Assembly (NCBI RefSeq): GCF_988242995.1
Contig: NZ_OZ547043.1
Reading direction: 5' to 3' (one strand)
Length of the DNA stretch: 64,000 nt
The translations under genes were made by a program, and so were the position numbers. Positions 54,712 to 56,590 of this stretch are shown piece after piece; position 1 is the first letter of the stretch, and each line of letters begins with the position of its first letter. The notes under the pieces were generated by a model, which searched no databases, was not told where the DNA came from, and was given only the letters and a program-made list of their open reading frames with translations.

Positions 54712-54738
54712 CCCCGAAGCCTGGCTTCGGGGTTTTTT
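54712..54738. terminator. Bidirectional rho-independent terminator between convergent ygaM and MocR-like gene
   Basis: ccccgaagc-ctgg-cttcgggg hairpin flanked by T-run. Confidence 0.6.
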
Positions 54739-56071
54739 AGCTTAAGGCTTTACGTAATTGTTGTGCTACCTGTCGCGCCATACCTTCGTTAACGATATTA
54801 GTAAACGAGAGCAGTAATCCACCTTCCCCACTTGAACGGATACGCCAGTCGCTAAGTGCCTGCACCGCAAGGCCTGCAGCATTGGCTTTACGCGCATGGG
54901 CAATATCATCGCCTATCATTTTGATCACCATCTGGATACCACCTTTCTGCGGCACAACCTGAAATCCTTGCTGCGTCAACGCTTGCTCAATCCATTGCCG
55001 ACGTTGAGCATAATGCTGACGCATTTTCTTCAGATGCCGCCAGAAATGCCCCTCGCGAAGAAAGTCTGCCAGTGTGTTCTGCCATAGAACAGGTACCGCA
55101 CATGGAGCCAGTGACGCCTGGTGGCGGAATTGTGCAATTTGCTTCACCGGCAACACCAGCCACGCACAGCGCAATGCAGGAAATAGCGCTTTGCTGAATG
55201 TTCCGGCATAAATTACCCGCTGCGGTGCGTCGAGACTTTTTAACGCCGGTAACGGCTTACCGTGATAGCGAAACTCACTGTCATAATCATCTTCAATAAT
55301 CCATGCCTGACTACGATCTGCCCATTCCAGTATCTGATGCCTGCGCGCTAAAGAGAGCGCCACACCCAGCGGACTTTGGTGTGCTGGTGTTATCAGGGCA
55401 AAACGCGCATCAGGATAATTTTGTATTCCGCTTGTGATATCCAGTCCATTGTCATCAACCGGCACAGGCAAAATTTCCACATCATGGCGAGTGACAATCG
55501 GGCGAATCAGTGGAAAGCCGGGATCTTCTATCCACATCCCGTTTCCCGGTTTCGCCAGCGCGTGCAGAATTAAAGCTATTGAGGCCGCATAACCGTGAGT
55601 GATAAAGACCTGCTCTGGCTGACAATCAATCCCACGTGAAACGCGTAAGTAATCAACTATTGCCTCGCGCAACGCCGCCTCACCGCAGACATCGCCTAAC
55701 GCCAAATCAAAGCGCGTCTGGGTACGAAGGCGACGCCCCATCACCCGCGCCCACAGCTCTCGCGGAAAGAGATCGAGTGCGGGTAATCCCATTTGAAATG
55801 GCAACGGTTGCTGACTTTCACCGGCAAAAGCTACAACTTGTACAGTAGATTGTTGCGGATATATCCGCTCACTGACAAATGTGCCAGCCTGTCCCCGCCT
55901 GATCAGCCATCCTTGCGCCACCAGCTCAGCATACGCATTTTCGACAGTGGATCGAGACACCCCCAGCTCCTGCGACCAGGTACGACTTGAAGGCAGCCTT
56001 GCGCCGGGTTTCAGTTCCCCTTGCTCAATAGCCGTTTTTAACTGACGGGCGATATCCTGATAGCGCGGCAT
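54737..56071 (-). CDS. MocR/GabR-type GntR-family regulator with PLP-dependent aminotransferase-like domain
   Basis: 444 aa; N-terminal GntR HTH (…SRTWSQELGVSRSTVENAYAELV…), aminotransferase-like fold with GTFSK motif. Confidence 0.8.
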   Translation of the reverse strand: MPRYQDIARQLKTAIEQGELKPGARLPSSRTWSQELGVSRSTVENAYAELVAQGWLIRRGQAGTFVSERIYPQQSTVQVVAFAGESQQPLPFQMGLPALDLFPRELWARVMGRRLRTQTRFDLALGDVCGEAALREAIVDYLRVSRGIDCQPEQVFITHGYAASIALILHALAKPGNGMWIEDPGFPLIRPIVTRHDVEILPVPVDDNGLDITSGIQNYPDARFALITPAHQSPLGVALSLARRHQILEWADRSQAWIIEDDYDSEFRYHGKPLPALKSLDAPQRVIYAGTFSKALFPALRCAWLVLPVKQIAQFRHQASLAPCAVPVLWQNTLADFLREGHFWRHLKKMRQHYAQRRQWIEQALTQQGFQVVPQKGGIQMVIKMIGDDIAHARKANAAGLAVQALSDWRIRSSGEGGLLLSFTNIVNEGMARQVAQQLRKALS

Positions 56072-56158
56072 ATGGTCTGCTTTTTTAGGTAATTTATGGC
56101 TCTCTTTAGCAGTCCATTATAGTGCTACATTGCGGGCGTTAATAAGAGGAGAAACTGT

Positions 56159-56590
56159 ATGACTACATTACGTCAGCCTTACTACGAACTTAGCCCGGCA
56201 GTGTATAACGCACTAGTGCAGGCCAAAACGGCACTGGAAAATAGCACGCTGGATACCACGTTGATGGAGTTAGTTTATTTGCGCGTCTCGCAAATCAACG
56301 GCTGCGCATTTTGTCTGGAGATGCACAGCAAAGCATTGCGCAAATCCGGCGTGCCACAGCACAAACTGGACGCCCTGGCAGGTTGGCGCGTAAGCCATCA
56401 TTTTGATGAACGCGAGCGGGCGGCTCTGGCATGGGCGGAATCGGTAACCGAAATTGCCAGAACCCATGCGGAAGACGAGGTTTATCAGCCTTTGCTTGAG
56501 CATTTCAGCGCAGCAGAGATCAGCGACTTAACGTTTGCCATCGGGCTGATGAATTGTTTTAACCGTCTGGCCGTTTCCATGCGGATGTAA
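56159..56590 (+). CDS. Carboxymuconolactone decarboxylase-family (AhpD-like) protein
   Basis: 143 aa; GCAFCLEMH AhpD-type motif; divergent from MocR-like gene. Confidence 0.75.
   Translation: MTTLRQPYYELSPAVYNALVQAKTALENSTLDTTLMELVYLRVSQINGCAFCLEMHSKALRKSGVPQHKLDALAGWRVSHHFDERERAALAWAESVTEIARTHAEDEVYQPLLEHFSAAEISDLTFAIGLMNCFNRLAVSMRM

What the first reader, a model, noticed from the sequence alone, without database searches (positions are those of the whole stretch)
54737..56590. Divergent MocR-type regulator and AhpD-like gene between ygaM and nrdH
A 444-aa GntR-HTH plus aminotransferase-fold regulator and a 143-aa carboxymuconolactone-decarboxylase-family protein (GCAFCLEMH motif) are divergently arranged. 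I do not recall them between ygaM and nrdH in K-12, so they may be a strain-variable insertion in front of the nrdHIEF operon. The MocR regulator probably controls the adjacent AhpD-like gene in response to a PLP-bound ligand.
Basis: partly seen in the sequence, partly recalled or inferred. Interest (0 to 1): 0.4.

Follow-up and report, generated by a model that had tools for sequence, protein, structure and literature searches.

The report
Ancestral MocR–AhpD-like gene pair, lost in K-12
The two genes are real and vary between strains. They are an old, already annotated regulator-plus-target pair that most E. coli, including K-12, have deleted, not a new insertion in front of nrdHIEF.

Summary
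A 444-aa MocR-type regulator (54737-56071, minus strand) and a 143-aa carboxymuconolactone-decarboxylase (CMD)/AhpD-like protein with a CxxC motif (56159-56590, plus strand) sit divergently between ygaM and nrdH.

K-12 lacks both genes. Only 1,387 of 5,426 complete E. coli genomes carry the pair, 1,276 at full length, so it is strain-variable.

The insertion reading is wrong. The order alaE-ygaC-ygaM-mocR-cmd-nrdH-nrdI is kept in E. albertii, Kluyvera, Cedecea, Pluralibacter, Shimwellia and even Rahnella (ygaM is missing in three Citrobacter). There are no mobile-element marks, and GC content matches the flanks. The pair is ancestral and was deleted in most E. coli.

The pairing is already in the literature. 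Suvorova and Rodionov (2016) predicted the regulog 'Spro_3719 - Enterobacteriales', which includes Salmonella STM2803 and has an AhpD/CMD-family gene (COG2128) as target.

I found a conserved three-box ATGG operator in the 87-bp intergenic region. It overlaps both candidate -10 elements and resembles the three-motif PdxR operator. Both genes are under purifying selection.

The effector and the biochemical role are unknown. PGAP's newer 'PdxR' name is not supported by context. Ordinary; low interest.

The parts
54351..54680 (+). ygaM (DUF883/ElaB family), left flank
   Evidence: Pfam DUF883 and NCBIfam PRK10132. RefSeq annotation of the matching locus L001.
54710..54734 (.). GC-rich hairpin plus T-run. 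It is the ygaM terminator, shared convergently with mocR, whose TAA stop (54737-54739) abuts it. It is also the left edge of the K-12-type deletion.
   Evidence: Terminator scan. Homology to the empty site ends at about 54738.
54737..56071 (-). MocR-type regulator: GntR winged helix-turn-helix domain plus a fold-type-I aminotransferase-like domain, with PLP-binding Lys294
   Evidence: Aligns to B. clausii PdxR 7PQ9 (2e-63) and to GabR 4N0B, with Lys294 opposite GabR K312. This Lys is conserved in 79 of 79 homologues. dN/dS is 0.07-0.10.
56072..56081 (.). Operator box 3 (ATGGTCTGCT), directly abutting the mocR start codon
   Evidence: Conserved without indels in 26 sequences from four enterobacterial families. 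The same geometry occurs in beta-proteobacteria.
56096..56105 (.). Operator box 2 (ATGGCTCTCT). It lies 24 bp start-to-start from box 3 and overlaps the candidate -35 of the cmd promoter.
56108..56117 (.). Operator box 1 (AGCAGTCCAT, which is ATGGACTGCT inverted). It forms a 22-bp inverted pair with box 2.
56116..56123 (.). Overlapping candidate -10 hexamers: TATAAT on the minus strand (56121-56116) toward mocR, and TATAGT on the plus strand (56118-56123) toward cmd
   Evidence: Read from the sequence. CACTAT(A/G)ATGG is conserved across Enterobacteriaceae. The simple promoter scan did not call these sites because the -35 elements are weak. Inferred, not mapped.
56144..56151 (+). Shine-Dalgarno AAGAGGAG for cmd
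   Evidence: Read from the sequence.
56159..56590 (+). AhpD-like CMD-family protein with E37, C49-A-F-C52 and H56
   Evidence: About 50% identical to P. aeruginosa PA0269 (2IJC/2O4D, E 3e-31). CxxC and His are invariant in 64 MocR-linked homologues. dN/dS is 0.06.
56600..56617 (+). Hairpin GCCGGGTATTCGCCCGGC after cmd, followed by an A-run rather than a U-run. It marks the approximate right edge of the K-12-type deletion.
   Evidence: No plus-strand terminator was called between cmd and nrdH.
56645..56683 (.). 39-bp patch that differs between haplotypes with and without the pair. It contains CGTAATCA (56663-56670), the 8-mer reported as the nrdHIEF 'FUR box' of E2348/69.
   Evidence: Alignment, coordinates, PMC3458845.
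56679..56725 (.). nrdHIEF NrdR boxes. Box 1 is TTCCCATATCTTGTAT, with 4 differences from K-12 TTGCTATATATTGTGT. Box 2 is CAACTACATCTAGTAT, identical to K-12.
   Evidence: K-12 probe sequence in PMC12176259..
56799..57044 (+). nrdH, first gene of nrdHIEF, right flank
   Evidence: NCBIfam PRK10329, 188.9 bits.

Best explanation
This is an ancestral two-gene local regulon of the Enterobacteriaceae, placed between ygaM and nrdH.

How it most likely works: a PLP-binding MocR-type transcription factor binds as a dimer to three ATGG boxes spread over 46 bp of the 87-bp divergent region. These boxes overlap the back-to-back promoters. The factor thereby autoregulates and controls the divergent gene. 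That gene encodes a PA0269-like AhpD-family protein, probably hexameric, that most likely acts as a cysteine-dependent reductase or weak hydroperoxidase.

Most E. coli lineages, K-12 included, lost the pair through a roughly 1.87-kb deletion running from the ygaM terminator to the hairpin after cmd. ExPEC/B2-like strains and the O157:H7 and O145:H28 lineages keep it.

Shown: gene content, synteny, distribution, conservation of the boxes and of the catalytic and PLP residues, and purifying selection.

Inferred: binding of MocR to the boxes, the sign of regulation, promoter positions, the effector, and the enzymatic role.
For: - Domains and family hits.
- K-12 lacks the genes. 1,387 of 5,426 genomes carry the pair, always at one chromosomal place.
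- Synteny alaE-ygaC-ygaM-mocR-cmd-nrdH-nrdI holds in E. albertii, Kluyvera, Pseudocitrobacter, Pseudescherichia, Cedecea, Enterobacter spp., Shimwellia, Pluralibacter and Rahnella. Citrobacter has the same order without ygaM.
- The published regulog 'Spro_3719 - Enterobacteriales' has COG2128 as its target in Salmonella STM2803, C. koseri, Klebsiella, Enterobacter 638, Pectobacterium and Serratia. The sister group PA0268 has the same target (PMC5320631 supplement).
- STM2804 lies about 5 kb from stpA in LT2 (PMC3723669).
- The three boxes have fixed spacing in 26 sequences from four families. Beta-proteobacterial pairs at about 45% protein identity show the same 22-bp plus 24-bp geometry.
- The B. 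clausii PdxR operator is likewise two direct motifs plus one inverted motif within 48 bp, covering both promoters (PMC10450172).
- Lys294 is conserved in 79 of 79 homologues, and CxxC plus His in 64 of 64. dN/dS is 0.06-0.10.
- PA0269 is a hexamer with weak, NEM-sensitive H2O2 reduction (PMC3141380).
- GC content is 0.50-0.54, like the flanks. There are no border repeats.
Against: - No experiment on this regulator or its orthologues was found: no paper on PA0268 function and none on STM2803.
- The promoter scan did not call the intergenic promoters.
- PA0269's peroxidase activity is weak and its physiological substrate is unknown.
- The proton-relay residue that is His in M. tuberculosis AhpD and Tyr in PA0269 is Phe51 here.
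- The deletion junction is not clean. A 39-bp patch and NrdR box 1 also differ, so the empty haplotype is not a simple one-step derivative of the allele in this window.
- 111 genomes have lost the 5' half of mocR yet keep cmd intact. That does not tell us whether MocR activates or represses.
Confidence: 0.75

Rival explanations
1. One reading: the pair is a strain-specific insertion (horizontally acquired islet) in front of nrdHIEF in some E. coli.
For: It is absent from K-12 and from about 75% of complete E. coli genomes. The B2-type and O157-type alleles differ by about 8% in DNA, and mocR dS is 0.41, which is unusually high within E. coli.
Against: The pair occupies the same position in more than 10 other genera, including the outgroup E. 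albertii and the distant Rahnella, and in Salmonella according to the literature. There is no integrase, IS element, tRNA or target-site duplication. GC content is like the flanks. The pair is never on plasmids and never at a second site.
Confidence: 0.04
2. The regulator is a genuine PdxR, as newer PGAP records name it. On this view it senses PLP and controls vitamin B6 metabolism.
For: The NCBIfam PdxR equivalog NF052282 scores 408 bits against a cutoff of 320. The closest solved structure is B. clausii PdxR. The three-motif operator layout resembles PdxR's. PLP itself is the effector of several MocR factors.
Against: PdxR regulons are defined by pdxST, pdxK, pdxU or pdxO targets (PMC5320631). 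Here the only conserved divergent target across more than 60 loci is a CMD/AhpD-like gene. Suvorova and Rodionov placed the enterobacterial orthologues in a separate group with target COG2128, not in PdxR, PdxW or PdxQ. From established knowledge, E. coli makes PLP through PdxA/PdxJ and has no pdxST. The MocR (rhizopine) model also scores 354 bits, which shows how broadly these family models cross-hit.
Confidence: 0.1
3. The 143-aa protein is a true gamma-carboxymuconolactone decarboxylase (PcaC) for aromatic catabolism.
For: Pfam CMD family hit and the RefSeq product name.
Against: No pca or beta-ketoadipate genes lie nearby. The protein carries the AhpD-type CxxC and proton-relay residues, which the PA0269 paper reports are absent from gamma-CMD enzymes. 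The best relatives are PA0269 and Atu0492, not PcaC.
Confidence: 0.03
4. The pair is functionally wired into nrdHIEF control. cmd transcripts read through into nrdH, or the presence or absence of the pair changes Fur and NrdR control of the class Ib reductase.
For: cmd and nrdH are co-oriented and 208 bp apart. The two hairpins between them have no U-run, and no plus-strand terminator was called. cmd-nrdH adjacency is conserved. Haplotypes with and without the pair differ in a 39-bp patch carrying the reported Fur 8-mer and in 4 of 16 bases of NrdR box 1. In Salmonella the validated Fur box lies at -309, which would fall inside the cmd orthologue.
Against: Gene order is broadly conserved in these genera anyway. 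Outside Enterobacterales the MocR-CMD pair has no nrd neighbours. Fur-dependent control of NrdF was reported in both MG1655 and E2348/69. nrdH keeps its own promoter and NrdR box 2 unchanged.
Confidence: 0.1

Closest known systems
Predicted regulog 'Spro_3719 - Enterobacteriales' (Suvorova and Rodionov 2016, Microb Genom 2:e000047), including Salmonella LT2 STM2803
   Same: A MocR-type factor divergent from a single COG2128 (AhpD/CMD) gene. The Salmonella member is at the same locus near stpA and nrdH. Orthologues here are 62-90% identical with identical operator boxes.
   Different: The E. coli copy was not in their genome set. Function and effector were left unassigned there, and nothing has been tested experimentally.
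P. aeruginosa PA0268/PA0269
   Same: PA0269 is the closest solved structure to the 143-aa protein (E 3e-31) and shares E, CxxC and H. PA0268 is a MocR factor predicted to control it.
   Different: Tyr50 of PA0269 is Phe51 here. The Pseudomonas regulon also contains a cupin (COG1917), whereas the E. coli pair has only one target gene. Suvorova and Rodionov file PA0268 in a different orthologous group.
B. clausii PdxR (PDB 7PQ9, 7ZLA, 7ZN5, 7ZPA, 7ZTH)
   Same: Best structural relative of the regulator (2e-63). It has the same PLP-binding Lys and a three-motif operator (two direct motifs plus one inverted) of about 48 bp spanning divergent promoters.
   Different: PdxR's target is pdxST and its effector is PLP. 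Here the target is an AhpD-like gene, the box sequence is ATGG-type, and the effector is unknown.
B. subtilis GabR
   Same: Same domain architecture. K312 aligns with Lys294. From the GabR literature, it shows divergent autoregulation plus effector-dependent control of the neighbouring gene.
   Different: GabR senses GABA and controls an aminotransferase operon. It uses two direct ATACCA repeats rather than three boxes.
M. tuberculosis AhpD
   Same: CMD fold, CxxC, and a Glu/His proton relay.
   Different: Only the core of about 50 residues is similar (TIGR00777 scores 30.9 bits against a cutoff of 192). The motif is at the N-terminus rather than the C-terminus. No ahpC partner is adjacent. 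The central His is Phe here.

Membership tests
MocR subfamily of GntR regulators | N-terminal GntR-type winged helix-turn-helix domain | tested here: met
   PF00392, residues 4-66, E 1.4e-17.
MocR subfamily of GntR regulators | C-terminal fold-type-I aminotransferase-like domain joined by a linker | tested here: met
   PF00155, residues 126-385, E 1.1e-25. Full-length alignment to PdxR and GabR structures.
MocR subfamily of GntR regulators | PLP-binding lysine | tested here: met
   Lys294 in GTFSKALFPALR aligns with GabR K312 and is conserved in 79 of 79 homologues. PLP binding itself was not tested.
MocR subfamily of GntR regulators | Repeated operator boxes (2-4, direct or inverted, often with a TGG or TGT core) next to its own gene | tested here: met
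   Three ATGG boxes with fixed spacing. The motif rule is taken from PMC5320631.
PdxR (vitamin B6 regulator) | Score above the NCBIfam equivalog cutoff | tested here: met
   NF052282 scores 408.4 bits against a cutoff of 320.
PdxR (vitamin B6 regulator) | Regulated neighbour is a PLP synthesis, salvage or transport gene (pdxST, pdxK, pdxU, pdxO) | tested here: not met
   The divergent neighbour is a CMD/AhpD-like gene in all syntenic loci. The definition of PdxR regulons is from PMC5320631.
PdxR (vitamin B6 regulator) | PLP as effector controlling B6 genes | not testable with these tools
   Needs binding and expression assays.
AhpD-like (CxxC) branch of the CMD family | CMD fold and AhpD core domain | tested here: met
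   PF02627, E 3.5e-21. TIGR00778 scores 54.9 bits against a cutoff of 27.8.
AhpD-like (CxxC) branch of the CMD family | Cys-X-X-Cys with Glu and His of the proton relay | tested here: met
   E37, C49, C52 and H56 align with PA0269 E36, C48, C51 and H55. They are invariant in 64 homologues, except for Glu, which varies outside Enterobacterales.
AhpD-like (CxxC) branch of the CMD family | Fifth relay residue (His132 in M. tuberculosis AhpD, Tyr50 in PA0269) | tested here: not met
   Phe51 here. It is Phe in most MocR-linked homologues and Tyr in a minority.
AhpD proper (AhpC reductase) | Partner ahpC in the same locus and full-length similarity to AhpD | tested here: not met
   No ahpC nearby. 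TIGR00777 scores 30.9 bits against a cutoff of 191.95.
AhpD proper (AhpC reductase) | Peroxidase or disulfide reductase activity | not testable with these tools
   Only the relative PA0269 was assayed, and its activity was weak.
Gamma-carboxymuconolactone decarboxylase (PcaC) | Context of beta-ketoadipate pathway genes, and no CxxC motif | tested here: not met
   No pca genes. The CxxC motif is present. The PA0269 paper states that gamma-CMD enzymes lack this motif.
Genomic island or insertion | Mobility genes, border repeats, atypical composition, and absence from outgroups at the site | tested here: not met
   None of these was found. Outgroups carry the pair at the same site.

The most novel reading that the evidence does not exclude
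The MocR/AhpD-like pair could be a PLP-based sensor and effector for a carbonyl-reactive or thiol-reactive toxic compound. The precedent is the P. aeruginosa MocR factor MpaR, which responds to cyanide (PMC10790758).

On this reading, losing the pair from most E. coli removed a stress response that ExPEC and O157 lineages keep. The loss also came with a remodelled Fur/NrdR region of the nrdHIEF promoter, possibly with cmd-to-nrdH read-through in strains that keep the pair.
Probability: 0.12. Interest if true: 0.5.

Novelty: already known. Interest (0 to 1): 0.18.

Why it matters
The practical value is modest and falls into three points.

1. It corrects the direction of the event. K-12 is the derived state here, which matters when K-12 is used as the reference for the ygaM-nrdH region and the nrdHIEF promoter.

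2. It flags a probable over-annotation. Newer RefSeq records call the regulator 'pdxR', but its conserved target is not a B6 gene.

3. It offers a concrete, easily testable operator (three ATGG boxes at 56072-56117) and natural mocR-null strains for a large, uncharacterised class of MocR regulons. AhpD/CMD genes are listed 53 times as MocR targets in the 2016 survey.

Nothing here would surprise a specialist.

Tried and rejected
- **Insertion or island.** I looked for border repeats, mobility genes, a GC shift and Rfam elements and found none. Synteny in outgroups rejects it.

- **Fur box stranded by the pair.** A Fur-like site lies just after ygaM (54684-54702, 14 of 19 matches to the consensus; K-12 has 13 of 19), so I asked whether the pair separates it from nrdH. 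I downgraded this. The literature puts the E. coli nrdHIEF Fur 8-mer next to NrdR box 1 in both MG1655 and E2348/69. Also, 31 sites in the 64-kb window reach 13 of 19 or better, so the match is weak evidence.

- **Origin of the K-12-specific 38-bp patch.** I searched for it inside the deleted segment and found only short chance matches. Its origin is unresolved.

- **Experimental literature.** I found nothing functional for PA0268, STM2803 or STM2804. STM2804 was used only as a 'no known function' site for a cat marker.

- **z3974.** This protein was retained on a salicylidene acylhydrazide affinity column from O157 lysate. I could not verify that z3974 is this cmd gene, because the supplementary table is not held, so I did not use it.

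- **Other guessed locus tags.** Searches for ECs3534, ECs3535, c3226 and c3227 gave only unrelated hits.

- **Promoter scan.** It does not call the intergenic promoters. The -10 assignments rest on conservation only.
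Full report
**Observation.** The ORF list shows a 444-aa ORF at 54737-56071 (minus strand) and a 143-aa ORF at 56159-56590 (plus strand). They are separated by 87 bp (56072-56158) and flanked by ygaM (54351-54680) and nrdH (56799-57044).

Pfam finds GntR plus Aminotran_1_2 in the first ORF and CMD in the second. NCBIfam adds the AhpD core domain for the second, and PRK10132 (YgaM) and PRK10329 (NrdH) for the flanks.

**Strain variability.** K-12 MG1655 goes straight from ygaM (b2672) to nrdH (b2673). Of 5,426 complete E. coli genomes, 5,421 match the flanks, but only 1,276 cover at least 80% of a query spanning the pair.

With the pair alone as query, 1,387 genomes match. 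Each has one place, always chromosomal and never on a plasmid. There are two allele classes:
- At least 99% identity: 1,007 genomes, including clone D i14, O6:K2:H1 and CSF isolates, so ExPEC/B2-like.
- About 92% identity: 365 genomes, O157:H7 and O145:H28.

A further 111 genomes cover only 69% of the query. In the example I examined (L004), a 581-bp deletion (window 55488-56068) with short microhomology removes the first ~195 codons of mocR. It also changes the first base of operator box 3 and leaves cmd intact.

**Polarity: ancestral, not inserted.** A scan of one genome per species with the regulator protein returned 79 loci. tblastn with the window's neighbouring proteins shows the order alaE-ygaC-ygaM-mocR-cmd-nrdH-nrdI in the following:
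- E. albertii (MocR 90% identical)
- Kluyvera, Pseudocitrobacter, Pseudescherichia, Cedecea
- several Enterobacter-labelled genomes
- Shimwellia and Pluralibacter
- Rahnella (47% identical)

Three Citrobacter genomes have the same order without ygaM.

Salmonella LT2 STM2803 is listed with a COG2128 target in the 2016 regulon survey. STM2804 is described as lying about 5 kb from stpA, which fits the same locus.

GC content across the pair is 0.50-0.54, against 0.48-0.56 in the flanks. No direct or inverted repeats mark the borders. There are no mobility genes and no Rfam element. The pair is therefore ancestral at this site, and K-12-type E. coli carry a deletion.

**Deletion junction.** Comparison with an empty site shows that homology ends on the left in the T-run of the ygaM terminator (about 54738). 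It resumes on the right around the hairpin after cmd (about 56611).

The empty haplotype is not a clean one-step derivative. A patch of about 39 bp (56645-56683) is unalignable between haplotypes with and without the pair, and 4 of 16 bases of NrdR box 1 also differ. O157 and E. albertii share the window's version.

**The regulator.** It aligns end to end with B. clausii PdxR (7PQ9, 2e-63) and B. subtilis GabR (4N0B, 8e-55). Lys294 in GTFSKALFPALR lies opposite GabR K312 and is conserved in all 79 homologues.

NCBIfam's PdxR equivalog scores 408 bits against a cutoff of 320. This is why newer RefSeq records name it pdxR. However, the rhizopine MocR model also scores 354 bits.

PdxR regulons are defined by pdxST, pdxK, pdxU or pdxO targets. 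Here the conserved target is an AhpD-like gene. Suvorova and Rodionov put the enterobacterial orthologues in a separate group, 'Spro_3719', with target COG2128. The related group 'PA0268' has COG2128 with or without a cupin. COG2128 is listed 53 times as a MocR target in their supplement. The PdxR name is therefore not supported by context.

**The target.** The 143-aa protein is about 50% identical to P. aeruginosa PA0269 (2IJC, 2O4D, 7XW1; E 3e-31) and also similar to Atu0492. PA0269 is a hexamer in which E36, C48, Y50, C51 and H55 form an AhpD-like proton relay. It reduces H2O2 weakly in a FOX assay, and N-ethylmaleimide blocks that activity.

The E. coli protein has E37, C49, F51, C52 and H56. 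CxxC and His are invariant in 64 MocR-linked homologues. The middle residue is Phe in most and Tyr in some.

It is not AhpD proper: TIGR00777 scores 31 bits against a cutoff of 192, and no ahpC is adjacent. It is not a PcaC-type decarboxylase either: there are no pca genes, and the CxxC motif is present.

**The operator.** I aligned the intergenic region from 26 enterobacterial sequences spanning Enterobacteriaceae, Rahnella, Hafnia and Budvicia. This shows a gap-free conserved core. Written in the mocR sense it reads:

TAGCAC TATAAT GGACTGCT AAAGAG AGCCAT A..T...TAAAAAAGC AGACCAT

In window coordinates:
- Box 3: 56072-56081, ATGGTCTGCT.
- Box 2: 56096-56105, ATGGCTCTCT.
- Box 1: 56108-56117, AGCAGTCCAT.

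Boxes 2 and 1 form a 22-bp inverted pair. Box 3 is a direct repeat of box 2, 24 bp away.

The same geometry, ATGGCC-N-GAGCCAAG-N-AGGCCAT, appears in Burkholderia, Herminiimonas, Collimonas and Terasakiispira pairs whose proteins are only about 45% identical. The cryo-EM study of B. clausii PdxR describes two direct motifs and one inverted motif within 48 bp, spanning the divergent promoters. That is the same layout.

**Candidate promoters.** A perfect TATAAT on the mocR strand (56121-56116) and TATAGT on the cmd strand (56118-56123) overlap next to box 1. The candidate cmd -35 falls on box 2. cmd has a strong Shine-Dalgarno sequence (56144-56151). These promoter assignments are inferred from conservation. 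The generic scan did not call them.

**Selection and mosaicism.** dN/dS is 0.07-0.10 for mocR and 0.06 for cmd, so both genes are maintained where present.

Between the window and O157, dS is 0.41 for mocR and 0.33 for ygaM, but only 0.07-0.10 for cmd, nrdH and nrdI. This indicates a recombination boundary near the intergenic region.

**Relation to nrdHIEF.** I asked whether the pair separates nrdH from a Fur site, because the best Fur-consensus match in the K-12 spacer lies just after ygaM. The literature places the E. coli Fur 8-mer next to NrdR box 1 instead. It is CGTAATCA in E2348/69, which is present in the window at 56663-56670. Fur-dependent NrdF control was reported in both MG1655 and E2348/69. 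The worry therefore does not hold.

In Salmonella the validated Fur box is at -309, which would fall inside the cmd orthologue.

No U-run terminator lies between cmd and nrdH. Read-through is possible but untested.

**Verdict.** The pair is real and correctly described. It is strain-variable through loss, not gain. It is already annotated in more than 1,200 genomes, and it belongs to a published but purely computational MocR-to-AhpD-like regulog. The mechanism of regulation is well supported by comparative evidence. The effector and the biochemical role remain unknown. Interest is low.

Noticed in passing
window 55488-56068; L004 2038-2793: 111 complete E. coli genomes cover only 69% of the pair. 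In the example examined (L004), a 581-bp deletion removes the first ~195 codons of mocR and alters the first base of operator box 3, while cmd stays intact. These are ready-made regulator-null strains.
   Followed up: partly
window 56645-56694 vs L005 (K-12) 4567-4619: The nrdHIEF promoter region differs by haplotype. A patch of about 39 bp carrying the reported Fur 8-mer is unalignable between genomes with and without the pair. NrdR box 1 also differs at 4 of 16 bases (TTCCCATATCTTGTAT vs TTGCTATATATTGTGT). The K-12 form is closer to the box seen in other genera.
   Followed up: partly
window 54351-56071 vs L003 (O157:H7): Mosaic divergence. Between this window and O157:H7, synonymous divergence is 0.33-0.41 for ygaM and mocR but 0.07-0.10 for cmd, nrdH and nrdI. 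This suggests an old recombination boundary near the intergenic region.
   Followed up: partly
L003 1985-2105: O157:H7 has about 93 extra bases between the ygaM stop and the terminator. They look REP-like (GCCTGATGCGCTATG... on the other strand) and replace the Fur-like AATGATAATAAATA sequence found in this window and in K-12.
   Followed up: no
window 54684-54702: Fur-consensus-like site (AATAATGATAATAAATACG, 14 of 19) immediately after the ygaM stop, also present in K-12 (13 of 19). It is probably not the nrdHIEF Fur box, and 31 sites in the window score 13 of 19 or better.
   Followed up: partly
L007, L008, L009 (Citrobacter spp.): These Citrobacter loci keep mocR-cmd-nrdHI but have no detectable ygaM between mocR and ygaC.
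   Followed up: no
window 54737-56071 (annotation issue): Older RefSeq records call the regulator 'PLP-dependent aminotransferase family protein'. Newer ones call it 'pdxR: MocR-like pyridoxine biosynthesis transcription factor PdxR'. The new name follows an NCBIfam equivalog hit but does not fit the conserved target gene.
   Followed up: yes
window 55347-55358 and 56099-56110: An exact 12-nt inverted repeat (GCTAAAGAGAGC / GCTCTCTTTAGC) links the mocR coding region to the spacer between operator boxes 2 and 1. It is likely chance at this length.
   Followed up: no
window 56600-56670: Two stable hairpins after cmd (minimum free energy -24.1 kcal/mol, z-score -2.8). Neither is followed by a U-run, so they are not canonical terminators. 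Their role (transcript stabiliser or weak terminator) is unknown.
   Followed up: partly
window 52500-53400: AT-rich stretch (GC 0.37-0.41) between stpA and alaE, well below the surrounding 0.48-0.54.
   Followed up: no
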